The notes below the pieces were generated by a model, which searched no databases, had not been told where the DNA came from, and was given only the letters and a program-made list of their open reading frames with translations. A stretch of 27,210 nt of DNA, taken from NCBI GenBank assembly GCA_005388305.1, contig GCA_005388305.1_4327.1; one strand, given 5' to 3'. Positions within the stretch are counted from its first letter, which is position 1. Each line of letters begins with the position of its first letter. Shown in pieces: positions 11,872-22,780 of this stretch. The DNA is from Escherichia coli (GTDB lineage Bacteria; Pseudomonadota; Gammaproteobacteria; Enterobacterales; Enterobacteriaceae). The position numbers and the translations under genes are program-made.

Positions 11872-13122
11872 TTATTCCAAATCTTCTTCACTAACCTGAT
11901 TCCACTCAGGACGTTTGTCGTCTGCCGTTGCGACACATGGTGCGCCTGGCTTACGGGTAATAAACGGCTCAAGCGCCGCCATCTCATCCGCAGAAAGAAC
12001 TTTTGCTGCCTCCGTAGGGGACATCAATACCTCTTTTTTGAGAATGTCGCCGTGTGACACTTCAATCGCATCGGCATCTTTCCACGCACGATTACCCGGG
12101 CGGCCTTCTACCAGTTTGTACCCTGGCACTTTCTTACCGGAATGCAATGTGGCGGACATCGCTTTCTCAACCTTGTCGATGTGCTGGCGTAACAGCGGCA
12201 ACTTCTCATACTCAACTACGAGTTGCTCCGTCGTCAGTTCCAGCACAAAGTCGTCTTCAAGTTCTTCCGCCAGTACAGAATTAACCGTCTTTGTACGCGC
12301 GGCACACTGTTCAGAGAACCGGCACCACTGGCAACCATCGACCGACGGCCTGAAGTCAGACGCTTTCAGGTTCTTTTTACCACGGAAATACGCATCAAGA
12401 GCTAACAGTGCACGTTTCTGCGCAAACTTAGCGAACAGTTCCAGACCTTCAACCGAGATGTCCCACTCCGACGCACCGCCAGCATACGGCTGGAATATTA
12501 CCAGGCGAACAACAGTGATGTTATATCGTCTCTTGAGTCGGCGATAAACACCGAGAGCATAAAGCATAAGCTGCTTGTTTTCTTTCGCTTCGACGCGATG
12601 CCGTCCAGTTTTAAGGTCGCCAATAATGAGCATGTGCTCGTCGGTGTTCGCCAGTTCCTGAACGGCAACAATGTCGGCGGTTCCGAATGTCTCAACGCCT
12701 TCGTAGCCTGGATGCAATACCTCACTAAGATTGACACGCATCTCGAGTTTGGCGTAAGTCGCTACATCGATAACAGCTTTGCAGTGGTCGGTGTACTTGC
12801 GCACCTGCTCAATCATGTCAGCCGTAATCAGTACCGCGCCTTTCATCGGGCTGATTAGCGCCTTAATCTGGCCTTTACCCTCATCCAGCACGTAAGCACC
12901 TACTTCGCGCCCTAACGGCAACGCAGTGCCTTTGATGTACTGGTTTAAGTGCATCTCAGCTATGGTGTGCATAGCCGTTCCTAATACGGCGGCTTTACCT
13001 GACGTGTTAGGAATATCTTTTTCACAGGCCAGTGATGCACTGCACGCCAGCCACTTTTTAGCACCAGACGGCGACAGCAGGGCGTGTACGTCATTATTGC
13101 CACCACGTTCTTTTAGTTTCAT
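11872..13122 (-). CDS. PD-(D/E)xK exonuclease, DUF2800 / Cas4-RecB-like, probably with Fe-S cluster, ~416 aa
   Basis: N-terminal HALLSPSGAKKWLACSASLAC, nuclease core GTADIVAV…IIGDLKTG, C-terminal cysteine cluster CQWCRFSEQC (one N-terminal plus three C-terminal Cys, as in Cas4/AddB Fe-S nucleases). Start set at ATG 13122 (MKLKERGG…) because it forms an ATGA overlap with the upstream small ORF; the ORF-track start is 13143. Confidence 0.75.
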   Translation of the reverse strand: MKLKERGGNNDVHALLSPSGAKKWLACSASLACEKDIPNTSGKAAVLGTAMHTIAEMHLNQYIKGTALPLGREVGAYVLDEGKGQIKALISPMKGAVLITADMIEQVRKYTDHCKAVIDVATYAKLEMRVNLSEVLHPGYEGVETFGTADIVAVQELANTDEHMLIIGDLKTGRHRVEAKENKQLMLYALGVYRRLKRRYNITVVRLVIFQPYAGGASEWDISVEGLELFAKFAQKRALLALDAYFRGKKNLKASDFRPSVDGCQWCRFSEQCAARTKTVNSVLAEELEDDFVLELTTEQLVVEYEKLPLLRQHIDKVEKAMSATLHSGKKVPGYKLVEGRPGNRAWKDADAIEVSHGDILKKEVLMSPTEAAKVLSADEMAALEPFITRKPGAPCVATADDKRPEWNQVSEEDLE

Positions 13123-13277
13123 GCTCTTAACCCCACACCCCATTTAGCTTTACGCGTTTTACGTTTGCAGGCGCACGTGTCGCCACTACGGTTGAAGATG
13201 ACCAGCCAAGTTGAGTTACTCACTCGAAAAGGCTGGTGACGTCTAACAAATAGAAGTCGCGCTTTACGGTTCGTCAT
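13119..13277 (-). CDS. small basic protein, 52 aa (below ORF-track cutoff)
   Basis: ATG 13277-13275 overlaps the TGA of the 90-aa gene (ATGA), and its own TGA overlaps the ATG at 13122 of the nuclease (ATGA). Translation MTNRKARLLFVRRHQPFRVSNSTWLVIFNRSGDTCACKRKTRKAKWGVGLRA. Confidence 0.3.
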   Translation of the reverse strand: MTNRKARLLFVRRHQPFRVSNSTWLVIFNRSGDTCACKRKTRKAKWGVGLRA

Positions 13278-13546
13278 ACCCTGACCTCCCACTGGTCGAT
13301 TAAATGCCGCGTCTTATGGTCGCAATGCATAGCCCAGCTATACATCGACTCGAAGACATAAAAGTCACTTTTAACGAAAGTCGTGCGCTTAATCTGCGAC
13401 AGGTGACGGCCTATATCTTTCGGCTTCGGTATTTTTCCAAGGTAGGCCATCTCTTCCATCTGGTGTGCACCGGACGGCGCACGCAATAACCATAGCGCCT
13501 CTGTGTTATCCCGCCTGTCAACGGCGCGGTATAGTTGGTAAATCAT
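13274..13546 (-). CDS. hypothetical protein, 90 aa
   Basis: ORF with GAGGG RBS-like sequence upstream of ATG 13546; part of the leftward operon; no recognisable motif. Confidence 0.5.
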   Translation of the reverse strand: MIYQLYRAVDRRDNTEALWLLRAPSGAHQMEEMAYLGKIPKPKDIGRHLSQIKRTTFVKSDFYVFESMYSWAMHCDHKTRHLIDQWEVRV

Positions 13547-13566
13547 AATCCCGACCCTCAGTTAAA

Positions 13567-13582
13567 GCGGCCCGAAGGCCGC
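13567..13582 (-). other. GC-rich hairpin between the acidic-protein gene and the 90-aa gene
   Basis: GCGGCC-CGAA-GGCCGC stem-loop in the 43-nt intergenic gap; possible attenuator or RNA-stability element. Confidence 0.3.
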
Positions 13583-13589
13583 GGGATAG

Positions 13590-14111
13590 TTATTCTTCTT
13601 CGAAATACTTGTTCTTGATTGCTGTCAGGCGCTCCAGATACTCAGCCAGGTCTTCGTCTTTAATCGCTGCAATCTTCATCTTCTTACCGGTGAACTCTTC
13701 CAGCAGTTCGTCAGAATCGTCGCACGCGGCCTCGCTTGGGCCTTCGTTAATCGCATCGTCGATAGCCTGAATCTGGTCGCGCAGAGACTGGTAATCGACT
13801 TCTTCTTTCTCTTCTTCCGGCTCTGGCGTTGGTTCCTCTACTTTGTCCTTACGCGGCTTGCGCTTCGGCTTCTCTTCTTCTGCGGGTTTAGCGTCAACGG
13901 TGTCTTCACCTTCTACCGGGATTTCTTTCGCCTTCTCGACTTCTTCAAGTGCTTTAGCCAGCTCTTTTTTAACTGTTTCTACCCCCGTGACCGCGACGTC
14001 AACAGTCAATTCACCTACAGATTTGCTAGTCGGTTGTTTCACACTGTTTGCAGCAATCAGTTCGTGGGCGACTACGAAACGTTCCAGTAATACTAAGAAT
14101 TTCTCTAACAT
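13590..14111 (-). CDS. highly acidic hypothetical protein, 173 aa
   Basis: First gene downstream of the promoter at 14143-14171; GAGAGGAGA RBS; extremely D/E-rich with one Lys/Arg patch (KPKRKPRKDK). Confidence 0.6.
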   Translation of the reverse strand: MLEKFLVLLERFVVAHELIAANSVKQPTSKSVGELTVDVAVTGVETVKKELAKALEEVEKAKEIPVEGEDTVDAKPAEEEKPKRKPRKDKVEEPTPEPEEEKEEVDYQSLRDQIQAIDDAINEGPSEAACDDSDELLEEFTGKKMKIAAIKDEDLAEYLERLTAIKNKYFEEE

Positions 14112-14142
14112 TATTTATTCTCCTCTCGTTTGGTATGGGCTA

Positions 14143-14171
14143 ACTATAATAGTGAACTATTCACTTGTCAA
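14143..14171 (-). promoter_or_regulatory. sigma70-like promoter (TTGACA-17-TATAGT on the - strand) inside a copy of the conserved 30-bp element, in a divergent intergenic region
   Basis: + strand TAACTATAATAGTGAACTATTCACTTGTCAATGG; - strand -35 TTGACA (14171-14166), 17-bp spacer, -10 TATAGT (14148-14143). A second partial copy of the element (GGTACTATTCACATATCAA, 14197-14215) lies just before the rightward XRE gene. Confidence 0.55.
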
Positions 14172-14235
14172 TGGGCTTTTCTAAAATAATTAATATGGTA
14201 CTATTCACATATCAACTGACTAAGGAGTAATTGAC

Positions 14236-14451
14236 ATGCAACCATCTGAACTAGGCATCCGTGTAGAACAGCGCCGTAAAGAACTCAGTATTTCCCAGCG
14301 CCGTCTGGCTGTCCTGACCGGCGTTTCCCAGGGTGCAATTAACCAGCTTGCACTCGGGGTAACGCGGGACGTCCGCCCAGCAACGCTGTTTAAACTGGCG
14401 GAAGTGCTAGAGGTAGACGCCAAGTGGCTGGCGTTCGGTGAAGGGGCTTAA
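14236..14451 (+). CDS. XRE-family helix-turn-helix transcriptional regulator (Cro/CI-like), 71 aa
   Basis: HTH signature QRRLAVLTGVSQGAINQLALG; AAGGAG RBS before ATG 14236; followed immediately by a terminator; the only rightward gene inside the leftward operon. Confidence 0.8.
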   Translation: MQPSELGIRVEQRRKELSISQRRLAVLTGVSQGAINQLALGVTRDVRPATLFKLAEVLEVDAKWLAFGEGA

Positions 14452-14467
14452 CGCCCCTTTCTTTTTA
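14441..14467. terminator. rho-independent terminator after the XRE gene (between convergent genes)
   Basis: AAGGGGC-TTAAC-GCCCCTT hairpin containing the XRE stop codon, followed by TCTTTTTATT. Confidence 0.55.
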
Positions 14468-14662
14468 TTGCACCTTTATCGGGTATCTTTTGCGAAACTT
14501 ACCTAACCCGCAGTATACGCTGTAAGCCTCTGTGTAACTGTACACAACATGATACCCGCGCCCGTAAGGAACTACGTTAAGAACTTCCACTACTTCGCCT
14601 CTGTGGTTGGTGCATTTATTACCTTTAAGTTCGTCGCTTACTTCTTTAAATTTACCGCTCAT
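14465..14662 (-). CDS. hypothetical protein, 65 aa
   Basis: ATG at 14662 forms an ATGA overlap with the primase-helicase stop (14659-14661); no recognisable motif. Confidence 0.45.
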   Translation of the reverse strand: MSGKFKEVSDELKGNKCTNHRGEVVEVLNVVPYGRGYHVVYSYTEAYSVYCGLGKFRKRYPIKVQ

Positions 14663-16926
14663 TCCAAATCCTCCTCTGTCACTGTCAGCATCTCATTCGG
14701 TTCATATATTGTCTTCGGAATCTTGTTATCAGTTATCCGGGTGTTCAGCCTGTAACGGCAAGGGATTATCTGATTGTTTTCGTCAGTCCCCGGAACAAGA
14801 TACCCAGCCTCAACCATTTTCTTAATCTTCCCGCGTTCTATGGCTTCTTTGGAGTTAAACGCCTTTGCATTGGGGTCAGACTGTGCGAGCTTATTAGCGG
14901 CGGCGACTGTGATGCCTTCGTTGCCGTTGTAGGTTCCTTCCGCCAGTTCAAACGCCGCCAGTATCGTGGCTTCCGAACTGTTGACGGCGTTCTCCATGGT
15001 TCTACGTACGTTTTCTTTACCTTCCTTAGTCAGTCCTTCTTCCCGCTCTTTCTCCTCGTCAGTCTTGAACGGCTCGAAACCCCACGGCATTAACACAAGT
15101 GCCTTATGCGGCTCCGGCAGGTCGAGGTTTACGATTGTGCCGTATTCCTCCGTGCTACCGAGGAACTCAACCGCACGGTACTCTTTCGGCGGCGGCGCTT
15201 CACGGAACTGTACAGACTCCAGCACCATACCAACCGTCTTCTGTTGAGGCCCGTGCTTGAATTTCGAGTGGTATACATTTATCTGGCGGTCGGTAGCTCG
15301 TTCGATTGTCAGTTCCACGTCGACGCCAGCATACAGCGCCCCACTGCCACGGGCTTTCTTTCCGCCCTTCGGCGTATGGTGGACAACGCCTACCGCAGCT
15401 TTAGTCGCGTCACGTACTTCTTTCAGGATGGCGATAACCTTACCCATGCCGATTGCCGTTGATGAACTGTTCTCGTCGAACTTATCAATCGTCAGGGCTA
15501 GCGTCTGGTTGAGGGTGTCGAACGCAACCATGCCGATGGGTTCGTCACCCGCAGTTTCACGCATCAACTTAATCAGGCTTTTCAGTTTTCCGACTTCGCC
15601 CATGTCGATGACATGTACATAATCTTTACCTTCCTCGCCATATTTAGCCGCGAGCGCATCGATACGGGTGCGGGTAGCTGCGCCGCCTTCACCGTCGATA
15701 TAGAAATGGTGGCAACGCTGCGTATCTGCCCCCGCAAACCGGTATCCGGCGGCGCTCAGGTACGCCATCCCCAGCGTATAGAACGATTTGTACGTGCCGG
15801 ATTCCCCGACAATATCCCAGATACAATCTGACGGCATGTACCCTTCAACGACGAAATCCGCCTTTACCGGTTCCGGTAACTCGTCATCCTCTGAGTCCTC
15901 GTCATCTTCCAGGTCGTCGAGGCTGCATGAAACAGATTCACGTGCACCCCATCCGATGGCCTCTGCGACTTCACTGAACGGCAGCCCCGTCGCATCGCAC
16001 GCATACTTCCACACCTCTTTCGGTGACATGCCTTCGGTCGCCGTAATGTCGGTGTCGTGAATCATTGTTACGTTCGGCGCCTCATATCCCTCTCGCGGGA
16101 AGCACAGCAGGAAGTCATCCGGGCGCGGCGTCGGGTCGCTGTAGTTTTCTGCGTGTTCTGGCGTAGCTGGCATCTTAAGGCCTCGTGGCGTCATGATACC
16201 GCCATACTCGAACGCCAGTGCCTCGAACGCGTCGGTAAACGCGGTGCGCAGTTCTTCCGGTATCTGGTAATCCGATGCGCTGCTAACGTCAACGGCGGGG
16301 ATGCCTTCCAGTAACTCGTCCGGGTCAATCAGGTCGTTGCGGCGTGACCAGATAACGGTAGAGCCAACCGGAGGCAGGTACATCGGTTGCGAAAGAGTGA
16401 ACCCGCTGCGGTCAGCACCCATGCTTTTGAAGAAGTGTTCCAGCAATCCATGGCGAACACGGATGATGTCACCACCTTCGACCGGACGGGCCAGCGGCAT
16501 GACGACGCGAAAGCGCGGGGACTCGTCGGTATGTGATGCCGTGGTATAGAGGCACATGGCCTGGCGGCTACGCTTAACCAGGCGTACAGCTTCCTGATAC
16601 TCTTCCGGCGTTGCACTGTCGAAGTCCAGATACGCCAGCGACGATTTGCTTACAGACGCATCACAGCGATAGAAGAAACCCTTACGCGCTTGCTTAAAGT
16701 CGCCGGTTTTCGGGTCTTTTACAGTGCTGTGCGTCGAGTCGCACGCGGCGGTGATATAACCGGGCGCGGTCTTCGGGTTAATTCCGTCACGGACAGCATC
16801 AAGCGGCTGGATTAACTCTTTCAGGTCGTCCAGTGTTGCCGTGTGTGTGGTTCTGACGTTTATATCCTTTTTCTCTGCCCGCGCGTTGCGACGTGACCAC
16901 GAGTAGGATAAAATTACATCGGACAT
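14659..16926 (-). CDS. replicative primase-helicase (N-terminal primase-polymerase-like region plus C-terminal RecA/RepA-like AAA_25 ATPase), 755 aa
   Basis: Walker A GESGTYKS, Walker B MVAFDTL, VVHHTPKGG motif typical of RepA-like ATPases; N-terminal half has an acidic LAYLDFD motif reminiscent of prim-pol catalytic sites. Confidence 0.75.
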   Translation of the reverse strand: MSDVILSYSWSRRNARAEKKDINVRTTHTATLDDLKELIQPLDAVRDGINPKTAPGYITAACDSTHSTVKDPKTGDFKQARKGFFYRCDASVSKSSLAYLDFDSATPEEYQEAVRLVKRSRQAMCLYTTASHTDESPRFRVVMPLARPVEGGDIIRVRHGLLEHFFKSMGADRSGFTLSQPMYLPPVGSTVIWSRRNDLIDPDELLEGIPAVDVSSASDYQIPEELRTAFTDAFEALAFEYGGIMTPRGLKMPATPEHAENYSDPTPRPDDFLLCFPREGYEAPNVTMIHDTDITATEGMSPKEVWKYACDATGLPFSEVAEAIGWGARESVSCSLDDLEDDEDSEDDELPEPVKADFVVEGYMPSDCIWDIVGESGTYKSFYTLGMAYLSAAGYRFAGADTQRCHHFYIDGEGGAATRTRIDALAAKYGEEGKDYVHVIDMGEVGKLKSLIKLMRETAGDEPIGMVAFDTLNQTLALTIDKFDENSSSTAIGMGKVIAILKEVRDATKAAVGVVHHTPKGGKKARGSGALYAGVDVELTIERATDRQINVYHSKFKHGPQQKTVGMVLESVQFREAPPPKEYRAVEFLGSTEEYGTIVNLDLPEPHKALVLMPWGFEPFKTDEEKEREEGLTKEGKENVRRTMENAVNSSEATILAAFELAEGTYNGNEGITVAAANKLAQSDPNAKAFNSKEAIERGKIKKMVEAGYLVPGTDENNQIIPCRYRLNTRITDNKIPKTIYEPNEMLTVTEEDLE

Positions 16927-16984
16927 GTTGTATTTCCTTCAGCAAGTAATTTGGCCTCGGCGTTCACCGCGTCGGGGCTTTCTT

Positions 16985-17260
16985 TTATTCCAGGTCGCGG
17001 GAGATATTACCCTCGGGCACCAACACTTTTCCAATACTTCTCGCTTTCTCTGTAATCGGCGTTGCTCTTTTTGCCCGATAAAACTTTCCTTTATTAAGAA
17101 CCTCTCCGTGTTGCTCGAGAACATCCAAAGCATGTTTAATCGGATTTACACCGTAATTATCTAACCGGTATCTCCGAAGCCCGTCTACCGTAAAAGCGCC
17201 GTTCGCCTCGGTCAGTCTGCGTGCACACATTAATATGTGTTTCTGGAATTTAGTTAGCAT
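16985..17260 (-). CDS. hypothetical protein, 91 aa
   Basis: ORF overlapping the upstream HTH gene by 11 nt; second gene of the leftward operon; no confident motif. Confidence 0.5.
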   Translation of the reverse strand: MLTKFQKHILMCARRLTEANGAFTVDGLRRYRLDNYGVNPIKHALDVLEQHGEVLNKGKFYRAKRATPITEKARSIGKVLVPEGNISRDLE

Positions 17261-17429
17261 CTTTCACGTTCTCCTTAATCCACGCCTCCACGGTAGCTCG
17301 GTCAAACGTACCTGGCTGCCGGTAGCCGTTAATAACACGACAACACTCCGGGAACTTACCGGACCGAAGCCAGCGATTAAGAGTCATAGGGGAAACTCCG
17401 ATTAAGTCTGCTACTTCTTTCTGTGTCAT
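17250..17429 (-). CDS. AlpA/excisionase-like helix-turn-helix DNA-binding protein, ~59 aa
   Basis: MTQKEVADLIGVSPMTLNRWLRSGKFP is a typical HTH_17/AlpA-type motif. Start set at the internal ATG 17429 (AGAGGG RBS 7 nt upstream); the ORF-track start 17459 would lie inside the putative promoter. Confidence 0.6.
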   Translation of the reverse strand: MTQKEVADLIGVSPMTLNRWLRSGKFPECCRVINGYRQPGTFDRATVEAWIKENVKDAN

Positions 17430-17458
17430 TTTACGCACCCTCTTTACCAAGTGAAACA

Positions 17459-17487
17459 ACTATAACACCTACAATAACTAAACACAA
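17459..17487 (-). promoter_or_regulatory. putative sigma70-like promoter of the leftward operon (TTGTGT-17-TATAGT on the - strand) within a degenerate copy of the conserved element
   Basis: + strand CAACTATAACACCTACAATAACTAAACACAACC; - strand -10 TATAGT (17464-17459), -35 TTGTGT (17487-17482). Confidence 0.35.
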
Positions 17488-17492
17488 CCTAT

Positions 17493-17519
17493 TGACAAAA
17501 TAAAATGTAGCTGTAAAAT
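17493..17519 (+). promoter_or_regulatory. putative rightward sigma70-like promoter (TTGACA-15-TAAAAT), back-to-back with the leftward promoter
   Basis: TTGACA at 17493-17498, TAAAAT at 17514-17519; the 15-bp spacer is shorter than optimal. Confidence 0.35.
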
Positions 17520-17752
17520 CAACGTATCGAAGGACCTTAGTTCAGAATTACTTAGAAACATTATTCTTAAGTCTCGGGTACTTAAAGCCCCGCCTTAAAG
17601 CGGGGCGCTAAACAGTACTCTTGGTAACGTTAGTATCTAAGTTTCCTCAAAGTAACAGCAAGTGGCAAGAAAGCCCCCGTCTATTTAAATTTTACCCTCC
17701 TTCATAAGTACCTGATAATTAAAAGTTTCTATAGTTGCCGTGAGTGAGGTAG

Positions 17753-17811
17753 AGAGTACTTCACTCCGCTGGGGTGGGCTAACGCCCACCCACTGCGTTG
17801 CGTACTCTTTT
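17753..17811 (+). terminator. compound hairpin followed by a T-tract (putative terminator or structured RNA element) in the non-coding control region
   Basis: Outer stem AGAGTAC (17753-17759) / GTACTCT (17802-17808) enclosing inner stem GGGTGGGC-TAAC-GCCCACCC (17772-17791), followed by TTTT (17808-17811). Confidence 0.4.
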
Positions 17812-17850
17812 AAGAAACGAAAGAATCACAACGGCAACGTAACTATTTTC

Positions 17851-17879
17851 TTGCACACCCAAACATAATAGGGTACTAT
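17851..17879 (+). promoter_or_regulatory. sigma70-like promoter (TTGCAC-17-TACTAT) inside a copy of the conserved element, driving the rightward small-gene block
   Basis: -35 TTGCAC 17851-17856, spacer containing CATAATAG, -10 TACTAT 17874-17879, then AGGAG RBS and ATG 17914. Confidence 0.5.
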
Positions 17880-17913
17880 TCACTTATCGAAACGAGACAG
17901 AGGAGTGAGGGTT

Positions 17914-18102
17914 ATGTTTAAGAATGGTCAGTTGGTTAAAGCTGTAAATAGCTATTATTGTGTTGTTGAAAGAGAGTCTGTCGTTTTTCTCGGAACTTAT
18001 AGGGTGCGTTTTCTCGGGAAAAGATTAGGCGCGGTAGATTGGTTCCGTGAAGACGAGCTAACACTCATCGGCAACAATTTTAAATTCAAAGGGGCGAAGT
18101 GA
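17914..18102 (+). CDS. hypothetical protein, 62 aa
   Basis: ATG 17914 with AGGAG RBS (the ORF track begins at an upstream GTG); first gene after the promoter. Confidence 0.55.
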   Translation: MFKNGQLVKAVNSYYCVVERESVVFLGTYRVRFLGKRLGAVDWFREDELTLIGNNFKFKGAK

Positions 18103-18302
18103 TGGAAGAATTATTTGAAGAACTGAAACATCATGATTTCGAGGAAATATATTTCGTAGCTGAACGCTACGAGGTGCATTTATCGGACGGGATTACAATT
18201 ATTACGATGGATAGCCAGCAAATGCTAAATAGCTTACAGGCAATCAAAACGGCATCGAATCGTGATGCTTGTGCCGACGACTCTGAGGGAGGTTGCCGTT
18301 AA
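18102..18302 (+). CDS. hypothetical acidic protein, 66 aa
   Basis: ATG 18102 overlaps the upstream TGA by 1 nt (TGATG). Confidence 0.55.
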   Translation: MEELFEELKHHDFEEIYFVAERYEVHLSDGITIITMDSQQMLNSLQAIKTASNRDACADDSEGGCR

Positions 18303-18502
18303 TGCGAATCCGTATAACTGACCGCAGGCTTATAGATTTCGGTATCTCGGTAGGTGATGTTTTTCCGGCGTTCAGCAGCAACCATTATGGTTTTATGATT
18401 GAGTACAAAGGGTCGTTATTGTTCGTGTATCGGGATGAATGCGAGGTTCTGGTATGGGTCCCTATAACCGGTTTCGTCTGGAGCGTCTACGTCGCGGATT
18501 AA
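18302..18502 (+). CDS. hypothetical protein, 66 aa
   Basis: ATG 18302 overlaps the upstream TAA (TAATG). Confidence 0.55.
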   Translation: MRIRITDRRLIDFGISVGDVFPAFSSNHYGFMIEYKGSLLFVYRDECEVLVWVPITGFVWSVYVAD

Positions 18503-18648
18503 GTAACGCTAAATTAGCTCTCGATATATGGGAGAGTACGCCATATTCTTCCTCGAAGGCATGGTTTGTAGCCCGTGCTAAAGCGTCCGTACAGTATCGC
18601 GAGTACAAGTTAAATAGTTTCCTTAGACACCACGGGGTTGAGTTATGA
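18454..18648 (+). CDS. hypothetical basic protein, ~64 aa (start uncertain)
   Basis: ORF in another frame overlapping the previous gene by ~50 nt; candidate starts ATG 18439 or 18454; Arg-rich N-terminus. Confidence 0.3.
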   Translation: MGPYNRFRLERLRRGLSNAKLALDIWESTPYSSSKAWFVARAKASVQYREYKLNSFLRHHGVEL

Positions 18649-18788
18649 GAGAAGCATTCGAACGGTGGGCCTTCGTCGAGGGTCTGCCGGTTAATAAGGG
18701 TTCAAAGAAAGAGTACCTGAACGTAAAGACGCGTCTCGCATGGCGGGCGTGGAAAGCTGGTGTGTTGTTTATCGCGAATCAGAGGTGA
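18645..18788 (+). CDS. hypothetical protein, 47 aa (below ORF-track cutoff)
   Basis: ATG 18645 in ATGA overlap with the upstream stop; translation MREAFERWAFVEGLPVNKGSKKEYLNVKTRLAWRAWKAGVLFIANQR. Confidence 0.35.
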   Translation: MREAFERWAFVEGLPVNKGSKKEYLNVKTRLAWRAWKAGVLFIANQR

Positions 18789-18791
18789 TTT

Positions 18792-18992
18792 ATGGGTGAG
18801 TGGATTAAGTGTAGTGAGATGCTGCCGGGTAATGGGTATACGGATAAAGAGTTCCTGGTGTATGAAACGTTAAATAACGCAGTTCAGCACGATTATTACA
18901 TAGTTCCTGATGACGGGAGAAAGCCCTTCTGGAATCACTACGATAAGTACGTGACGCACTGGATGCCGTTACCAGAGCCGCCGGAAGTGTGA
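18792..18992 (+). CDS. DUF551-like phage protein, 66 aa
   Basis: C-terminal THWMPLPEPPE is the signature I recall for DUF551 proteins of enterobacterial phages; AGAGG RBS 6 nt before ATG. Confidence 0.55.
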   Translation: MGEWIKCSEMLPGNGYTDKEFLVYETLNNAVQHDYYIVPDDGRKPFWNHYDKYVTHWMPLPEPPEV

Positions 18993-19126
18993 TGTTCAAT
19001 AGTTTGGGATTTTACTGAGTGACTTACGCTGCTACACAGCAGCGTACAACTTTAACTTAGTGTCGTCAAAAGGCGACACTTTCATCAAACGCAACAATCG
19101 AAGCGACTATTGCAGGAGATGCAACA

Positions 19127-19300
19127 ATGATTACTAAAGAACAGGCTGAACGACTACTCACGTTAATCGACACGATGATTGACGTAAAAACCGATTTAGC
19201 AACGGCAACAGAGGAATCCGCTACCTGGTCGCTTGAAGAAAGAGAAGCAGAAGCGGAAAGGGAGTTACTGGCGTTCATCGGCTCTATAACACACCAATAA
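19127..19300 (+). CDS. hypothetical protein, 57 aa (below ORF-track cutoff)
   Basis: ATG 19127 with AGGAG RBS; same strand as neighbours; replaces the antisense ORF-track call 19066..19278 (-). Confidence 0.4.
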   Translation: MITKEQAERLLTLIDTMIDVKTDLATATEESATWSLEEREAEAERELLAFIGSITHQ

Positions 19301-19307
19301 AATTTAC

Positions 19308-19336
19308 TTGCACACTAAGATATAATAGGCTACTAT
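19308..19336 (+). promoter_or_regulatory. sigma70-like promoter (TTGCAC-17-TACTAT) inside a copy of the conserved element
   Basis: -35 TTGCAC 19308-19313, spacer containing TATAATAG, -10 TACTAT 19331-19336; RBS GAGAGGAGAG and ATG 19368 follow. Confidence 0.5.
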
Positions 19337-19367
19337 TCATTTACACGAGCGAGAGGAGAGACAGAAT

Positions 19368-19496
19368 ATGAAAGATTATAGCGAAGTAACTTTAGGTGAG
19401 TTGCAGGACGAGTACGAAGATATGCGCTACCCGTTCATCTGCGACGGGGACTACAACGGCGTCTATAACGGGGTGAGCGAAGAATATGAACACTAA
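19368..19496 (+). CDS. hypothetical acidic protein, 42 aa (below ORF-track cutoff)
   Basis: ATG 19368 with strong RBS directly after the promoter; overlaps the next gene by 11 nt. Confidence 0.4.
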   Translation: MKDYSEVTLGELQDEYEDMRYPFICDGDYNGVYNGVSEEYEH

Positions 19497-19965
19497 AAAC
19501 GAAATATTCGAGTACCTGATCGACCAGCTACGGCAGCAGGTAAATAACAGCCGGAGCGAAGACCTGGCGCATGAGGTGCAGTCACTTAAGAATCAGTTAC
19601 GTGATGCGTCGGCGCAGATTAAGGAGTTGCATAAGGCGTTGGCTACGGCTACAGGTGACATAGGTGCTTATATAGCAGCAGAGCAATCTGGTTGCCGTAA
19701 GGAAGATACTCAGTACAACGCCTGGAGGCCGCATTATGGTGCACGACAACCTGTGCCGGATGGGACTATGGTATTTATCCGGTATCGCAACGGGGTGGAG
19801 CCGAAACACAGTGTAGCAGCAGAAAAGCGGTCGTGGATTTGGGATGGAACATACGCAGACATAGTGGAATACAAGATTGACACACAGGAATGTGAACATG
19901 ACTATCGTTTGGTTCTGTGGTGTAGCGACTTACAGCAGTGCTCTAAATGCGGGGTGATCAAATGA
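19486..19965 (+). CDS. hypothetical protein with N-terminal coiled coil and C-terminal Cys/His cluster, 159 aa
   Basis: Largest gene of the early block; C-terminus CEHDYRLVLWCSDLQQCSKCG suggests a zinc-binding module. Confidence 0.6.
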   Translation: MNTKNEIFEYLIDQLRQQVNNSRSEDLAHEVQSLKNQLRDASAQIKELHKALATATGDIGAYIAAEQSGCRKEDTQYNAWRPHYGARQPVPDGTMVFIRYRNGVEPKHSVAAEKRSWIWDGTYADIVEYKIDTQECEHDYRLVLWCSDLQQCSKCGVIK

Positions 19966-20165
19966 CCAGCATATTATTTATCTGGGTACTGTCGGCGGGC
20001 CAGATGCAACTAGCGGCATCGGAAACGTTTTATTCGACGGAGGCGTGCCAGTCCGCGGCACGCGCCGCAGAGAACGCGCACTTCCTGTTTCAGGGCGACA
20101 AGCCCAACGATTCAGAGGTACGCGCTATCTGCTCACCTAAGCGACTTGGTAAACAGGAGAAATAA
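19962..20165 (+). CDS. small protein with N-terminal hydrophobic signal/anchor sequence, 67 aa
   Basis: ATG 19962 in ATGA overlap with the upstream stop; N-terminus MTSILFIWVLSAGQMQLAAS is signal-peptide-like. Confidence 0.5.
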   Translation: MTSILFIWVLSAGQMQLAASETFYSTEACQSAARAAENAHFLFQGDKPNDSEVRAICSPKRLGKQEK

Positions 20166-20166
20166 C

Positions 20167-20352
20167 ATGGTACAGAAACTATATGTTCCGTATACAGAAG
20201 AATCCGCGTCAGATTGGTCACCGAATTGTGTAGTTATGTATGAAGACTACGCGGAACTGGAACGCAAACTTCGTAACTTCGCCGACCAGGTATTGTATGT
20301 ACCTTGTTCGAAAGTTACCGAAGAAATGGCGATGGAGATTCTCGGCATATGA
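20167..20352 (+). CDS. hypothetical protein, 61 aa
   Basis: ATG 20167 with AGGAGA RBS. Confidence 0.5.
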   Translation: MVQKLYVPYTEESASDWSPNCVVMYEDYAELERKLRNFADQVLYVPCSKVTEEMAMEILGI

Positions 20353-20630
20353 GCCTTGCAACTGACATCCTGAAACGAAGCGGCCTTGCGCCGCTGTCAC
20401 CAAAAGTTAAGACGCGAGCGCGTAACGCAACTTACCGCGAACTGGCAGAACGGCGCAAAGCTATCCGCGCCTGTGGATTCCAGAACGGGAAGGCTGTTAA
20501 TCTCGGTGAGTTCAAGACAAAGGAACGCGCCGATATCGCTAATAGGCTATTTAATTACTGGAAATCGCTGGGGTACGATGATATTCCAACGAAACCGCAG
20601 AGACGACAATACATCTGGCGCCATAAATAA
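20349..20630 (+). CDS. hypothetical basic protein, possibly DNA-binding (AP2-like segment), 93 aa
   Basis: ATG 20349 in ATGA overlap; the segment NGKAVNLGEFKTKERADIANRLFNYW loosely resembles the second half of an AP2-type DNA-binding domain (weak). Confidence 0.45.
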   Translation: MSLATDILKRSGLAPLSPKVKTRARNATYRELAERRKAIRACGFQNGKAVNLGEFKTKERADIANRLFNYWKSLGYDDIPTKPQRRQYIWRHK

Positions 20631-20660
20631 ACCGTTATTAGGATAATTCCTACCCGTGGT

Positions 20661-20700
20661 ATCCTCCAGTTACTGCATACTTAATACGCACCTGGAGGAT
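20661..20700 (+). promoter_or_regulatory. stem-loop sequestering the holin ribosome-binding site
   Basis: 9-bp inverted repeat ATCCTCCAG (20661-20669) / CTGGAGGAT (20692-20700); the 3' arm contains the GGAGGA RBS of the holin (TTG start at 20706). Confidence 0.4.
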
Positions 20701-20705
20701 TCATC

Positions 20706-21014
20706 TTGGATAAATTTACTGAAACAGTGACAGGCTGGCTTCTGGCTGCCGCACTAGCTGGCGGGGTAATAGGCCTACGGCAACACAAAGCCACTATTAC
20801 TGGTCCTGTCGATGCTCTCTGTTTTCTCGCCACTGGATTTGCGTGCGCCGTATTCGGTGCACCTCTTGCCGCTCAATGGTTCGGTATCGCAGGTGAACGC
20901 GAAATAGCGGGCCTTGGGTTCATCATTGCTATTCTCTGGATGCCGATTTATTCCCGTCTCTCTGGCATTGTCGCCGGAGAATACATCGCACGTCGCGGAG
21001 GTGGCAATGAATGA
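20706..21014 (+). CDS. holin, 102 aa (TTG start)
   Basis: Small protein with three hydrophobic segments and a charged C-terminus (ARRGGGNE), directly upstream of and overlapping the other lysis genes; GGAGGA RBS 8 nt before TTG. Confidence 0.6.
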   Translation: MDKFTETVTGWLLAAALAGGVIGLRQHKATITGPVDALCFLATGFACAVFGAPLAAQWFGIAGEREIAGLGFIIAILWMPIYSRLSGIVAGEYIARRGGGNE

Positions 21015-21279
21015 GTTATTCTGGTTTGGCGGTATGCTGGCAATTGGGGGCACATCGCTGTTTAATGTGTATCACCTGAGTGTTGACGACGGGCTTTTCG
21101 GTCGGGTGCTCTATATCCTGACCGCTATCGTCTGCGCCGCTGGATGTATCCACCTGTTACAGGGCAGCATGTCACCGACGCTGCCTGAGACATTAATCAC
21201 ATTAGTTGCGCTGCGACAGATTCGCCAGTCGTGGCTGCTATACGGAGGATATAAGCGTGTCTCGAAATATTTCAGATAA
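21007..21279 (+). CDS. lysis-associated membrane protein (putative second holin/antiholin), 90 aa
   Basis: ATG 21007 overlaps the holin 3' end by 8 nt; two hydrophobic segments (FWFGGMLAIGGTSLF, VLYILTAIVCAAGCIHLL). Confidence 0.5.
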   Translation: MNELFWFGGMLAIGGTSLFNVYHLSVDDGLFGRVLYILTAIVCAAGCIHLLQGSMSPTLPETLITLVALRQIRQSWLLYGGYKRVSKYFR

Positions 21280-21745
21280 TGGATTGCATTTCACCGCCGC
21301 GTTCGAGGGATTCCGCGGAACTGCGTATCGCGCTACGCCGGACGAGAAGTACCTGACTATTGGGTACGGAAGTTATGGCACACACGTTAAAGCGGGGCAG
21401 ACCATCACGCCAGGGCAAGGCCTCCTGTTACTGAATCGCGATATGGCTAAGGCTGTAGCTGCTGTTGACGCAGCAGCACACCATTCGCTTACACAGGCAC
21501 AGTTCGATGCGGTGTGTGACCTGGTGTATAACGCAGGTGCTGGCGTGATTGCGTCTACTACGGGCACAGGCAAGGCACTGCGTTCTGGTGATACCGCAAC
21601 ACTGCGGGCTAAGCTGGCGCTGTTCATCAACCAGAACGGCAAACCACTACTTGGCCTGCGTCGCCGTACAGCCGGGCGTCTGGCGCTGTTCGATGGTAAA
21701 CCGTGGCAAGAGGCAGAGGCTATTGGGCGTGCGGTGAAAGGTTGA
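21257..21745 (+). CDS. endolysin, lysozyme (GH24-like), ~162 aa
   Basis: N-terminal catalytic region FEGFRGTAYRATPDEKYLTIGYG (Glu…Asp…Thr spacing as in T4/lambda-type lysozymes); GTG start at 21257 preceded by GGAGGA; a strong terminator follows. Confidence 0.75.
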   Translation: MSRNISDNGLHFTAAFEGFRGTAYRATPDEKYLTIGYGSYGTHVKAGQTITPGQGLLLLNRDMAKAVAAVDAAAHHSLTQAQFDAVCDLVYNAGAGVIASTTGTGKALRSGDTATLRAKLALFINQNGKPLLGLRRRTAGRLALFDGKPWQEAEAIGRAVKG

Positions 21746-21810
21746 CACCTAAGATTAATCCGACGATACTTAAATCACCTCCTGCTCCATCCCTCTGCTC
21801 TCCAGTTTTA

Positions 21811-21842
21811 TCCCGGCCCTGACCCAGCCGGGATTTTTTTTT
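21811..21842 (+). terminator. rho-independent terminator after the lysis cassette
   Basis: Stem TCCCGGC / GCCGGGA with 10-nt loop, followed by a run of 9 T. Confidence 0.75.
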
Positions 21843-21864
21843 ATCTATTTTCTGCAATGACTAG

Positions 21865-21893
21865 TTGACTATTACCATCGACCCTATTATATT
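21865..21893 (+). promoter_or_regulatory. sigma70-like promoter (TTGACT-17-TATATT) within a variant of the conserved element
   Basis: -35 TTGACT 21865-21870, -10 TATATT 21888-21893; flanked by duplicated CCATCGAC (21875-21882 and 21897-21904) and CTATTA motifs; RBS GGAG and ATG 21927 follow. Confidence 0.5.
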
Positions 21894-21926
21894 TACTCCA
21901 TCGACAACGAGAACGGAGTAGAGAAG

Positions 21927-22067
21927 ATGAAAATCACAGATATCGAGGCATTCAAAGACGCACAACTGATGGCACGCATCGCCGTTAGTAACCTGAGCAA
22001 CAGCATTCCAGCGGACGCGTTCTGGTTCGCTGCGATGCAGACACTTAAAGCAGCTTATGCAGGAGAG
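21927..22067 (+). CDS. hypothetical protein, 46 aa (below ORF-track cutoff)
   Basis: ATG 21927 after promoter and RBS; stop overlaps the next ATG (ATGA). Confidence 0.4.
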
Positions 22068-22231
22068 AAGAAATGAGCGAACAAGGTGAAGTAAGCCAAC
22101 CATTACGAGTAGGCCGTAAAGTCAGTCACACCCCGTTCCCGACACGCGAGGAACTGATGAAACGCAACAGTTTCCCGGGGCCGGACAAGAACAAGTATCT
22201 CAATCGCATGTGGGGAGAGCGTAAAGAATGA
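22064..22231 (+). CDS. hypothetical protein, 55 aa (below ORF-track cutoff)
   Basis: ATGA-coupled at both ends; translation MSEQGEVSQPLRVGRKVSHTPFPTREELMKRNSFPGPDKNKYLNRMWGERKE. Confidence 0.4.
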   Translation, partial: REEMSEQGEVSQPLRVGRKVSHTPFPTREELMKRNSFPGPDKNKYLNRMWGERKE

Positions 22232-22413
22232 CTGACCGTGAATACGAAAAGATGATGGTAGAGGCTGTTAACGGCGGCGTAGACATCGGTCACGTGATGC
22301 ACGTCCTGAATACTAAAATCGCAGTAGCTGAGCAGATGGTTGAGTCGCTTTACGAGACACGCCGTGAACTGATTAACCGCTTCAACCTGAACAAAGGTGA
22401 CAACAATGCCTAA
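22228..22413 (+). CDS. hypothetical protein, 61 aa
   Basis: ORF-track ORF; ATGA overlap with the upstream gene. Confidence 0.5.
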   Translation: MTDREYEKMMVEAVNGGVDIGHVMHVLNTKIAVAEQMVESLYETRRELINRFNLNKGDNNA

Positions 22414-22591
22414 AATCACAATAGCATCACTTGAGCGCCGTATTCTGGTGCTTGAGTCTGAGAAACAGACGCTAGGCGGGCAACTGTCGATTAACGGAGA
22501 GTTTCAACTGGAGGCGTTTAAGTTGTTACTCGAACGTATGAAGGATGAGGAAGATTGGGCGCATTCCTTGCAAGACCTATGGCAATACTAA
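22406..22591 (+). CDS. hypothetical protein, 61 aa
   Basis: ATG 22406 with AGGTGA RBS (the ORF track starts at an upstream GTG). Confidence 0.5.
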   Translation: MPKITIASLERRILVLESEKQTLGGQLSINGEFQLEAFKLLLERMKDEEDWAHSLQDLWQY

Positions 22592-22593
22592 AC

Positions 22594-22776: not shown

Positions 22777-22780
22777 GAGT

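What the first reader, a model, noticed from the sequence alone, without database searches (positions are those of the whole stretch)
17430..17913. ~450-bp structured non-coding control region with back-to-back promoters and a compound hairpin: candidate small RNA or replication origin
This is the longest stretch without any ORF of 60 aa or more on either strand. It contains a leftward promoter (-10 at 17459-17464) and a rightward promoter (17493-17519) back-to-back. A GC hairpin CCCCGC-CTTAAA-GCGGGG lies at about 17587-17604, and a nested hairpin with T-tract at 17753-17811 looks like an intrinsic terminator. The conserved promoter element follows at 17851-17893. A transcript from 17493 to about 17811 would be a ~290-nt non-coding RNA. 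Alternatively the region could be the replication origin, given the adjacent primase-helicase operon.
Basis: inference. Interest (0 to 1): 0.5.

Follow-up and report, generated by a model that had tools for sequence, protein, structure and literature searches.

The report
Non-coding early control region of a Kagunavirus
This 484-bp gap is the genuinely non-coding main control region of a K1G-like E. coli phage: two back-to-back promoters, a roughly 285-base untranslated hairpin-rich transcript unit, then the phage family's invariant early promoter; it resembles a known lactococcal phage replication origin, but nothing here shows what it does.

Summary
Positions 17460-17904 are the longest ORF-free stretch in the window. 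All four short ORFs tested there fail: three are broken by stop codons in close relatives, and the fourth lies over a conserved hairpin and is frameshifted in one relative.

The window comes from a Kagunavirus (K1G/K1H-like, Guernseyvirinae). The region separates the leftward HTH/primase-helicase replication operon from the long rightward operon.

**Elements:**
- Back-to-back sigma-70 promoters: PL (-10 at 17464-17459) and PR' (17492-17519, 11 of 12 consensus bases).
- A predicted untranslated RNA of about 285 nt (17526 to about 17811) with hairpins SL-a, H1 and H2.
- A 33-bp upstream block that is invariant across the subfamily.
- The main early promoter P2 (17851-17879).

In relatives, the H1 and H2 stems almost never vary while loops and spacers do (1 of 72 versus 49 of 221 columns). 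H2 carries only 3-4 U, so it is not a canonical terminator.

Other Guernseyvirinae fill the same slot with at least three unrelated sequences of the same length and layout. One of them is a covariation-supported structured RNA.

I found no iterons, DnaA boxes or Rfam match. The closest analogue is the transcribed, multi-type origin of lactococcal Ceduovirus (c2). The most likely reading is a cis-acting non-coding early transcription unit; whether it serves as an origin is open.

The parts
17250..17429 (-). HTH_17 / excisionase-like DNA-binding protein gene. It is the first gene of the leftward replication operon, followed by a 91-aa ORF and then the primase-helicase at 16926-14659.
   Evidence: PHROG 66 and Pfam HTH_17. 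The start ATG at 17429 is set by homologues. The HTH gene is one of only 4 early genes in Kagunavirus K1B4 RNA-seq (PMC12645636).
17459..17487 (-). PL, the leftward sigma-70-type promoter: -35 TTGTGT (17487-17482), 17-bp spacer, -10 TATAGT (17464-17459).
   Evidence: Read from the sequence. The TATA core is invariant in six divergent relatives, and the -35/-10 pattern TTGnnT-17-TATAST holds in every sequence type. Function is inferred.
17492..17519 (+). PR', the rightward promoter TTGACA-16-TAAAAT. The predicted start is A17526, giving a transcript that begins AUCGAA, the same first six bases predicted for the P2 transcript.
   Evidence: 11 of 12 consensus bases. Invariant in 8 relatives. The -10 and initial transcribed sequence resemble P2 (19 nt, 74% identity, repeat D1).
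17526..17811 (+). Predicted untranslated transcription unit of about 285 nt, running from the PR' start to the T-tract after H2.
   Evidence: No ORF is conserved: stops or frameshifts appear in close relatives. Fold z = -4.0. The 3' end is inferred and not shown.
17545..17575 (+). SL-a, a small AU-rich hairpin (core 17550-17572).
   Evidence: RNAalifold consensus. The stems are invariant and the variable columns lie in the loop.
17576..17620 (+). H1, a compound hairpin: lower stem GGGUACU/AGUACUC, internal loops, upper stem GCCCCGC/GCGGGGC, loop CUUAAA.
   Evidence: dG -23.7 kcal/mol, z -3.1. No variable paired column in 8 relatives, while the loop and internal loops vary.
17583..17610 (.). 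A 28-mer that is identical to the terminal hairpin of the conserved 'unit 1' leader upstream of the spanin and capsid genes in related phages. Here it sits in the opposite orientation relative to the promoter.
17623..17646 (+). Small predicted hairpin with weak support.
   Evidence: RNAalifold consensus, with one broken pair in one relative.
17679..17741 (.). AT-rich stretch (35-38% GC). It carries the only short motifs shared by all sequence types: GTCTATT (17679-17685), AAGTnnCTGAT (17706-17716) and GCCGT (17737-17741). The four bases inside AAG-NNNN-TGAT are hypervariable among close relatives.
17689..17718 (-). Candidate leftward promoter TTATCA-18-TAAAAT. Transcripts from it would run into H1, which on the minus strand reads hairpin + UUUAAGU. 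Speculative.
   Evidence: 9 of 12 consensus bases. Hexamers are invariant and the spacer hypervariable in the 8 same-type relatives. It is absent from the other sequence types.
17751..17811 (+). H2, a long compound hairpin followed by UUUU. It could be an attenuator or weak terminator, or an RNA processing or stability element.
   Evidence: dG -32.6 kcal/mol, z -4.7. In 16 distinct sequences from 21 loci, every substitution between GAGAGTAC and GTACTC falls in a loop, a bulge or an internal loop. The T-tract is 3-4 T, and the terminator scan does not call it.
17818..17850 (.). Upstream block conserved across the subfamily (core AAGAATCACAACGGCAACGTAAC, 17821-17843). It occurs once per genome. 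It is probably an upstream promoter element or a protein-binding site for P2.
   Evidence: Invariant across Kagunavirus and Jerseyvirus. One exact copy per contig in 39 viral contigs. None of the other copies of the promoter element in the window has it. Three loci carry a 10-bp insertion between the block and the -35.
17851..17893 (+). P2, the main early rightward promoter: TTGCAC-17-TACTAT, predicted start A17886. It overlaps the palindromic element TAATAG-GGTA-CTATT (17866-17880).
   Evidence: The same motif is reported as the repeated 'phage promoter' consensus in fBC-Eco01 (PMC9825357).
17900..17916 (+). Ribosome-binding site (GAGGAG) and ATG of the first rightward gene (PHROG 12538).

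Best explanation
This is the central, truly non-coding control region of a virulent Kagunavirus-like phage. I think it acts in cis, through its own transcription and its folded hairpins. It does not act through a protein or a conserved trans-acting RNA.

**Proposed sequence of events**
1. Host RNA polymerase with sigma-70 binds two back-to-back promoters whose -35 hexamers lie 4 bp apart.
2. PL fires leftward into the HTH / 91-aa ORF / primase-helicase replication operon.
3. PR' fires rightward from about A17526 and makes an untranslated RNA. That RNA folds into SL-a, the compound hairpin H1 and, about 225 nt downstream, the long compound hairpin H2 followed by 3-4 U.
4. At H2 a fraction of transcripts probably stops or is processed, giving an RNA of about 285 nt. 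The rest continue across the invariant 33-bp block and join transcripts from the main early promoter P2. P2 starts 360 bp downstream with the same AUCGAA start.

**Modularity.** The PR'-to-H2 interval is an exchangeable module. Sister phages carry unrelated sequences with the same order of parts and nearly the same length between the same conserved flanks.

**Shown:** non-coding status; promoter-grade sequences and their conservation; selection on the H1 and H2 stems; the modular multi-type slot.

**Inferred:** the transcription start sites; termination or processing at H2; regulation of the overlapping promoters by the adjacent HTH protein; what the unit is for.

Within this cis-acting reading, I put about 0.35 on a regulatory leader, attenuator or insulator for the rightward operon. 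I put about 0.25 on a Ceduovirus-like transcribed origin, which is listed as the first rival.
For: - **Non-coding.** It is the longest ORF-free stretch in the window, and the short ORFs are broken or frameshifted in relatives that are 94% identical on average.
- **Promoters.** PR' matches 11 of 12 consensus bases and is invariant in relatives. The PL hexamers are conserved in all sequence types. PR' and P2 share their -10-to-start sequence.
- **Hairpins under selection.** One of 72 paired columns in H1 and H2 varies, against 49 of 221 other columns (Fisher p = 3e-6) and 9 of 33 unpaired columns inside the same hairpins (p = 1e-4). In 16 distinct H2 sequences, all substitutions fall in unpaired positions.
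- **Same slot, different sequences.** There are 8 sequence clusters. The distance from the HTH start to the conserved block falls within about 380-420 nt in 33 of the 35 complete distinct sequences. Every type has a rightward promoter, an early long hairpin and a late hairpin, with z between -2 and -6.
- **A sister module is a real structured RNA.** In the fFiEco02/RP180 type, 98.4% of cells are paired against 33-47% in slid controls. There are 22 double-change cells, and 0 of 500 shuffles reach the observed value. G-U pairs occur on the + strand.
- **Independent annotation.** The fBC-Eco01 GenBank record predicts promoter, then terminator, then promoter, with no gene between, in the same slot.
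- **Timing.** The HTH gene is one of only 4 early genes in Kagunavirus RNA-seq (PMC12645636).
Against: - No transcript data exist for the slot itself. The K1B4 RNA-seq paper has no hit for intergenic, non-coding or promoter.
- None of the 81 predicted pairs shows a compensatory change among the 8 same-type sequences, and the covariation term is unfavourable. The structural support is therefore 'stems do not vary', taken from closely related genomes.
- Identity to K1H in the slot (95-98%) is no higher than in the neighbouring primase-helicase gene.
- H2 fails a simple terminator criterion, and its U-tract length varies.
- The fold is equally stable on the minus strand, so strand assignment rests on promoter and T-tract orientation.
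- A purely regulatory leader does not obviously explain why unrelated modules keep the same length.
Confidence: 0.55

Rival explanations
1. Transcribed replication origin of the lactococcal Ceduovirus (c2) kind. The non-coding PR' transcript, or the act of making it, opens or primes the DNA next to the replication operon. The semi-conserved AT-rich stretch (17679-17741) and/or the invariant block (17818-17850) would be the sites seen by the conserved phage replication proteins.
For: **Match to the published description of Ceduovirus ori (PMC7150918).** That origin is a non-coding region between two divergently transcribed gene blocks. It is flanked by the first two early promoters (PE1, PE2) and has no ORF or ribosome-binding site. 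It comes in several types that are over 90% identical within a type and unrelated between types. The length and structure of the non-coding PE1-T transcript matter for function.

**The same features here.**
- Divergent gene blocks.
- Tandem promoters PR' and P2, 360 bp apart.
- No conserved ORF.
- Eight sequence clusters of near-constant length.
- The slot adjoins the primase-helicase, SSB and DNA polymerase A operon.
- GC content is lower, at 27-38% in parts.
- Short motifs are shared by all types.
Against: - The support is analogy only.
- There are no iterons or tandem repeats and no DnaA box in the region.
- The GC-skew minimum coincides with the switch in transcription direction and cannot be told apart from it.
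- One slot module is a paralogue of a leader that sits in front of late genes, which fits a transcriptional role more simply.
- No natural plasmid carries the region. The single plasmid-database hit is a whole phage genome.
Confidence: 0.25
2. A free-standing, trans-acting small RNA. One version is the ~285-nt + strand RNA, whose H1 28-mer is complementary to the terminal hairpin of the conserved late-operon leader ('unit 1'). Another is a ~100-nt minus-strand RNA from 17682 to 17583, starting at the candidate promoter TTATCA-18-TAAAAT and ending at H1.
For: - The unit is bounded by a promoter and a hairpin.
- The 28 nt at 17583-17610 are 100% identical, in inverted orientation, to the unit-1 hairpin. 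The two RNAs would therefore be complementary, including the loops CUUAAA and UUUAAG.
- The minus-strand candidate promoter has invariant hexamers and a hypervariable spacer.
- On the minus strand H1 reads as the same hairpin followed by UUUA, as it does at the end of unit 1.
Against: - Sister phages carry unrelated sequences in the slot, so no seed or target pairing is conserved.
- The H1 loop differs in K1H, K1G, EC3-1 and L031, while the K1H unit-1 loop stays TTTAAG. There is no matching change.
- The minus-strand promoter is absent from the other types.
- No Rfam family matches.
Confidence: 0.08
3. No function of its own. The interval between PR' and the conserved block is a recombination junction where promoter-and-hairpin fragments pile up between two conserved flanks. 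Only PL, the block and P2 matter.
For: - The organisation is strongly mosaic, with breakpoints inside the slot. For example, 17706-17850 is shared at 94-96% identity with phages whose upstream part is unrelated.
- Some Jerseyviruses carry extra tandem modules.
- Conservation against K1H is not above the local background.
Against: - The length is held within about 40 nt across unrelated modules.
- Substitutions avoid the paired positions of H1 and H2.
- Every module keeps a strong rightward promoter and two stable hairpins.
- One module type shows genuine covariation.
Confidence: 0.1
4. A classical protein-recognised origin, with iterons and/or DnaA boxes plus an AT-rich unwinding element, as in lambda, P4 or plasmids.
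For: It lies next to the primase-helicase operon, and parts of it are AT-rich.
Against: No direct-repeat family longer than chance pairs occurs in the region. There is no tandem repeat. No DnaA box occurs in the region; the window has 2 in total against 1.8 expected, both elsewhere. The invariant block is single-copy.
Confidence: 0.02

Closest known systems
Replication origin region of Lactococcus Ceduovirus (c2-type) phages, with its non-coding PE1-T transcript
   Same: [quoted passage not shown]
- The region is bounded by the first two tandem early promoters.
- There is no ORF or ribosome-binding site.
- Several sequence types are over 90% alike within a type and unrelated between types.
- Transcript length and structure are reported to matter (PMC7150918).
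   Different: - The host and phage lineage are different, and there is no sequence similarity.
- Ceduovirus ori has been shown to drive plasmid replication without phage proteins. Nothing has been tested here.
- This phage encodes its own primase-helicase and DNA polymerase A.
- Here an invariant 33-bp block precedes the second promoter.
Guernseyvirinae 'unit 1' / type-2 structured leader RNA
   Same: - In fFiEco02/RP180-type Kagunaviruses it occupies the same slot.
- It is likewise a sigma-70 promoter followed by a hairpin-rich untranslated RNA and a terminal hairpin.
- It shares the 28-nt GCCCCGC hairpin with H1.
   Different: - The window's sequence does not match the model.
- The shared hairpin is inverted and lies near the 5' end of the unit rather than at its 3' end.
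- Unit 1 lies upstream of the spanin, scaffold and capsid genes and falls outside this window.
Lambda PR' - 6S RNA - tR' late leader (Q antitermination) and HK022 putL/putR
   Same: A constitutive promoter is followed by an untranslated, structured RNA and a hairpin stop signal at the head of a very long operon that includes lysis and morphogenesis genes. In HK022, two paralogous promoter-proximal RNAs of about 70 nt, each with two stem-loops, make RNA polymerase resistant to terminators (PMC9378689). The lambda details come from my own knowledge.
   Different: - A strong second promoter (P2) sits just downstream of the hairpin.
- H2 has a weak U-tract.
- I looked for no Q-like protein or binding element.
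- The slot modules share no sequence, and model R1 finds no shared structure. That argues against a single RNA polymerase-binding RNA.
T7 early region (promoters A1-A3, untranslated leader, RNase III site R0.3) and T7/T4 promoter-associated origins
   Same: Tandem strong early promoters are followed by a few hundred untranslated bases and a long imperfect hairpin just before the first gene. Origins made of a promoter plus an AT-rich stretch are also known in these phages. This comparison rests on my own knowledge and was not checked here.
   Different: There is no sequence relationship. RNase III cleavage of H2 is untested. The T7 origins use the phage's own RNA polymerase.

Membership tests
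Ceduovirus (c2)-type transcribed origin | Non-coding region between two divergently transcribed gene blocks | tested here: met
   Genes from 5771 to 17429 lie on the minus strand and genes from 17914 to 26933 on the plus strand. The region is non-coding.
Ceduovirus (c2)-type transcribed origin | Region flanked by the first two tandem early promoters, with no ORF or ribosome-binding site after the first | tested here: met
   PR' lies at 17492-17519 and P2 at 17851-17879. No ORF is conserved. The promoters are predicted, not mapped.
Ceduovirus (c2)-type transcribed origin | Several sequence types that are highly similar within a type and unrelated between types | tested here: met
   There are 8 clusters. 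Mean column identity within the window's type is 94%. Outside that type the slot gives only short or partial BLAST matches, and the type-2 model does not hit the window.
Ceduovirus (c2)-type transcribed origin | The fragment supports autonomous replication, and the transcript is required for it | not testable with these tools
   This needs a cloning and replication assay, or marker-frequency analysis.
Intrinsic (Rho-independent) terminator, applied to H2 | Stable GC-rich stem-loop | tested here: met
   dG -32.6 kcal/mol, z -4.7. The stems are invariant in 16 distinct sequences.
Intrinsic (Rho-independent) terminator, applied to H2 | U-rich tract directly after the stem (5 or more T within 8 bases) | tested here: not met
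   The tract is TTTTAAGA here and has 3 T in K1H, EC3-1, L032 and L038. The scan does not report it.
Classical iteron / DnaA-box origin | Multiple direct repeats (iterons) for an initiator protein | tested here: not met
   Only short two-copy chance-level repeats occur in the region, and there is no tandem repeat.
Classical iteron / DnaA-box origin | DnaA boxes (TTWTNCACA) | tested here: not met
   None occur in 17430-17913. The window has 2 elsewhere, against 1.8 expected.
Any Rfam RNA family | Covariance-model match at or near the gathering score | tested here: not met
   The best hits score 11-16 bits against gathering thresholds of 35-75 bits, with E above 3. Sister loci also give no match.
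Guernseyvirinae unit-1 / type-2 structured leader (model R1, built here) | Match to the covariance model of the P1 hairpin plus the long irregular hairpin | tested here: not met
   With filters off, cmsearch finds no hit in 17430-17913. The best hit in the window scores 6.9 bits, elsewhere. Members of the family score 75-158 bits.
HK022 put-type antiterminator RNA | Two adjacent stem-loops (about 70 nt) close to the early promoter | tested here: inconclusive
   SL-a and H1 are predicted at about +20 to +95, but the resemblance is generic. I did not compare sequence or structure with put.
HK022 put-type antiterminator RNA | Paralogous copies at the heads of the long operons; binding to the RNA polymerase beta' zinc-binding domain | not testable with these tools
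   Only the 28-nt hairpin is shared with the unit ahead of the late genes. Binding to RNA polymerase needs biochemistry.

The most novel reading that the evidence does not exclude
Guernseyvirinae, a group of virulent enterobacterial phages that includes Kagunaviruses isolated against drug-resistant E. coli, may start DNA replication from a transcribed, RNA-dependent origin of the lactococcal c2 kind. That origin would consist of interchangeable promoter-plus-structured-RNA cassettes placed between conserved flanks. One such cassette is a paralogue of the ultraconserved leader RNA ahead of the late genes. In K1G-type phages the origin RNA would additionally be complementary to that leader's terminal hairpin, which could couple replication to late-gene expression.
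Probability: 0.2. Interest if true: 0.7.

Novelty: new variant of a known kind. Interest (0 to 1): 0.5.

Why it matters
Kagunaviruses and Jerseyviruses are widely isolated as candidate agents against drug-resistant E. coli and Salmonella. Even so, I found no published account of where their replication starts or how their early transcription is organised.

This slot is the point from which both halves of the genome are transcribed. It contains the most conserved non-coding sequence at this locus, next to its most exchangeable one.

- **If it is a transcribed origin,** it would extend a mechanism described in lactococcal phages to enterobacterial phages and give a handle for engineering.
- **If it is a regulatory leader,** it defines the early promoter architecture.
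- **Either way,** it shows that short ORFs annotated here in some deposited genomes are unlikely to be genes.

Tried and rejected
- **Rfam.** Scans of the region and of four sister loci found nothing near threshold.
- **tRNA and tmRNA.** None in the window.
- **Long-range MFE helix (17567-17584 with 17705-17722).** Rejected. The 3' arm contains a four-base patch with six different versions in eight relatives, while the 5' arm is invariant.
- **Small ORFs.** The ORFs at 17621-17707 (+), 17685-17789 (-) and 17478-17561 (-) carry stop codons, and the last also loses its ATG, in close relatives. The ORF at 17740-17868 (+) overlies H2, has a GTG start without a ribosome-binding site, and is frameshifted in EC3-1.
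- **Homology to the structured RNA of sister phages.** Covariance model R1 does not find the window's sequence.
- **Kissing-loop pairing between H1 and the unit-1 hairpin.** Not supported by co-variation. The H1 loop varies while the K1H unit-1 loop does not.
- **Iterons, tandem repeats and DnaA boxes.** Absent from the region.
- **GC skew.** The turn coincides with the change in gene orientation, so it is uninformative.
- **Excess conservation.** Identity to K1H is no higher than in the adjacent primase-helicase gene.
- **Host or plasmid origin.** There is no match in 5,426 E. coli genomes.
- **Literature.** Searches on Guernseyvirinae promoters, origins and transcriptomes found nothing about this slot. 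The original c2 origin papers are not held in the library.
- **My fixed-window hairpin scan.** It was too crude and missed H1, so I replaced it with targeted folds.
Full report
**What the window is.** The 1-kb stretch around the finding matches 448 phage records. The best are Escherichia phages K1H, K1G and K1ind at about 88% identity, all in Kagunavirus, subfamily Guernseyvirinae.
- To the left, on the minus strand, lie an HTH_17/excisionase-like gene (17429-17250), a 91-aa ORF and a replicative primase-helicase (16926-14659).
- Further left come an Enc34-type SSB, a PD-(D/E)XK nuclease, DNA polymerase A, a cytosine methylase and an SNF2 helicase.
- To the right, on the plus strand, small early genes start at ATG 17914. 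Homologous positions in K1H show that the lysis and packaging genes follow.
- The finding is therefore the divergent junction from which both halves of the genome are transcribed.

**Checking the observation.** 17460-17904 (445 bp) is the longest stretch in the window without an ORF of 60 aa or more; the next longest is 263 bp.
- *Short ORFs.* Three are interrupted by stop codons in relatives that average 94% identity. The fourth overlies a conserved hairpin and is frameshifted in one relative. The region is non-coding.
- *Rightward promoter.* TTGACA-16-TAAAAT (17492-17519) matches 11 of 12 consensus bases. It ties for the best match in 13.7 kb and is invariant in eight relatives.
The hexamer pair is kept in every sequence type of the subfamily. 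The scanner itself preferred another site.
- *Spacing.* The two -35 hexamers are 4 bp apart.
- *H1.* The GC hairpin (17587-17606) is the upper stem of a compound hairpin, H1, spanning 17576-17620.
- *H2.* The nested hairpin, H2, spans 17751-17810. Both hairpins fold much better than shuffled sequence.
- *Terminator claim.* The one weak point is the terminator. The T-tract is four T here and three in several relatives, and the scan does not call it.

**Conservation among close relatives.** I aligned eight distinct K1G-type sequences.
- No predicted pair shows a compensatory change, so there is no positive covariation.
- The substitutions are far from evenly spread. One of 72 paired columns in H1 and H2 varies, against 49 of 221 other columns (p = 3e-6). 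Inside the same hairpins, 9 of 33 unpaired columns vary (p = 1e-4).
- H2 also occurs in phages whose upstream part is unrelated. In 16 distinct sequences from 21 loci, every change between GAGAGTAC and GTACTC lies in the loop, a bulge or an internal loop.
- The long-range helix that dominates the single-sequence fold is contradicted. Its 3' arm includes a four-base patch with six versions in eight sequences, opposite an invariant 5' arm.
- Identity to K1H in the slot (95-98%) is no higher than in the neighbouring primase-helicase gene. The case for selection therefore rests on where the changes fall, not on how few there are.

**The wider family.** I anchored on the invariant 17-mer CACAACGGCAACGTAAC, which occurs once per contig in 39 viral contigs.
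- I extracted the interval from the HTH start to the anchor in 39 loci, giving 36 distinct sequences, one of them cut short at a locus end.
- The sequences fall into eight clusters. These are built from at least four unrelated left modules (promoter plus first hairpin domain) and three unrelated right modules (terminal hairpin).
- The interval falls within about 380-420 nt in all but two of the 35 complete sequences.
- Every type keeps a good rightward sigma-70 promoter, a long stable hairpin early in the predicted transcript and another just before the conserved block.
- Only short motifs are common to all types: GTCTATT, AAGTnnCTGAT and GCCGT, which lie at 17679-17741 here.
- The block (17818-17850) and P2 (17851-17890) are essentially invariant across Kagunavirus and Jerseyvirus.
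- The block is not part of the general promoter element, because the other copies of that element in the window lack it.
- Three loci have exactly 10 bp inserted between the block and the -35. Since 10 bp is one helical turn, this fits a protein site that must face RNA polymerase. That reading is an inference.
- The deposited fBC-Eco01 record independently predicts promoter, terminator and promoter in this slot with no gene between them. The accompanying paper does not discuss this.

**A sister module is a genuine structured RNA.**
- In fFiEco02/RP180-type Kagunaviruses, the left module is 78-89% identical to a promoter-plus-leader unit that lies elsewhere in the genome. I call that unit 'unit 1'. 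It sits upstream of the spanin, scaffold and capsid genes.
- Unit 1 is 94-100% identical in 180 phage records across both genera.
- The paralogues give real covariation. 98.4% of cells are paired, against 33-47% when partners are slid. There are 22 double-change cells, and no shuffle out of 500 reaches the observed values. G-U pairs that work only on the + strand are also present.
- A covariance model of this RNA scores 75-158 bits on its members but finds nothing in the window's slot.
- The window's module is therefore not a detectable homologue. It shares with unit 1 only the 28-nt hairpin 17583-17610, and in the opposite orientation.

**What it most likely is.** The slot is a non-coding early transcription unit that acts in cis.
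- PR' starts an untranslated RNA at about 17526. The RNA folds into SL-a, H1 and H2.
- At H2 some transcripts probably end or are processed. The rest continue into the operon that P2 also serves.
- PR' and P2 have near-identical -10-to-start sequences and the same predicted first six bases.
- The adjacent HTH gene varies together with the left edge of the slot. It is one of only four early genes in a Kagunavirus RNA-seq study. It is therefore a plausible regulator of the overlapping promoters, although this is inferred.

**Origin or not.** Classical origin marks are absent, and GC skew cannot be separated from gene orientation. The literature does hold a close functional analogue, the origin of lactococcal Ceduovirus (c2) phages.
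- It is a non-coding region between divergent gene blocks, bounded by the tandem early promoters PE1 and PE2.
- It has no ORF or ribosome-binding site.
- It comes in three types that are over 90% alike within a type and unrelated between types.
- Its non-coding transcript PE1-T matters through its length and structure (PMC7150918).

Every sequence-level feature in that list is met here. The functional features cannot be tested with these tools. I give this reading about 0.25.

A trans-acting small RNA is unlikely (0.08), because nothing that could serve as a seed is conserved between types. In addition, the H1 loop drifts without a matching change in its possible target.

**Verdict.**
- This is a new variant of a known kind of element: a modular, transcribed, non-coding phage control region, and possibly an origin.
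- It is of moderate interest, and it can be tested directly with end-mapping RNA-seq and marker-frequency analysis.

Noticed in passing
window 16886-16989 (+ strand): This looks like a candidate antisense RNA of about 70 nt against the primase-helicase start. A promoter-like TTGCGA-17-TAAAAT (16886-16914) is followed by a hairpin (16953-16979) and TTCTTTTATT, all on the strand opposite the replication operon. The RNA would cover the gene's ribosome-binding site and ATG (16926). The hairpin and T-run are conserved in fFiEco02, SP-101 and fBC-Eco01. Their pairs are G-U-rich and work only on the + strand, and a few changes are compensatory. The fBC-Eco01 record annotates terminators at this position.
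   Followed up: partly
outside the window; K1H L051:905-1140, SETP13 L004:2481-2740 (minus strand): An ultraconserved promoter-plus-structured-leader unit lies upstream of the spanin, scaffold and capsid genes. It consists of TTGACT-17-TAAGCT, an RNA of about 230 nt, and a GCCCCGC hairpin. It is 94-100% identical in 180 Kagunavirus and Jerseyvirus records, and covariation with its paralogues supports its structure. Some records annotate it as a 38-aa protein (fBCEco01_09), but the paralogues break that reading frame.
   Followed up: partly
window 8332-8361, 11838-11867, 14142-14171, 14191-14213, 17861-17890, 19323-19345, 27177-27208: A palindromic element TGAATAGnnnnCTATTAT recurs at these sites. 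It lies in the promoter spacer of leftward promoters but over the -10 of rightward ones. That suggests an operator for a dimeric regulator rather than a promoter as such. The fBC-Eco01 paper lists the same motif as a promoter for a phage RNA polymerase (PMC9825357). I came across no polymerase gene in the parts of these genomes I looked at, but I did not search for one.
   Followed up: partly
L031, L036, L040 (between the conserved block and the -35 of P2; equivalent to window 17846-17850): Exactly 10 bp (TTTCAATGAA), one helical turn, is inserted between the invariant block and the promoter.
   Followed up: no
window 17418-17452 and 20144-20178: The 5' untranslated region and first codons of the HTH gene (minus strand) resemble those of a plus-strand gene starting at about 20168 (35 nt, 74% complementary, pair I3). 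The two genes may share a translation-initiation region or be paralogous.
   Followed up: no
plasmid record CP088689.1, 640-833: A 44-kb 'plasmid' from an E. coli blood isolate appears to be a whole Kagunavirus genome. It is the only hit in the plasmid database.
   Followed up: no
L008, L013, L041, L012 (Jerseyvirus-type loci, downstream of the conserved block): Some Jerseyviruses carry an extra non-coding module between the conserved block and the next P2-like promoter. It includes the hairpin CTTGCC-TTAC-GGCAAG and a repeated GAATAAAGGCAC. The slot can therefore hold tandem modules.
   Followed up: no
window 26930-27208: After the portal gene comes a bidirectional terminator (26941-26975). 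It is followed by a 63-aa minus-strand ORF with no family match and its own copy of the palindromic promoter element at the window's edge. This looks like a small inserted gene cassette.
   Followed up: no
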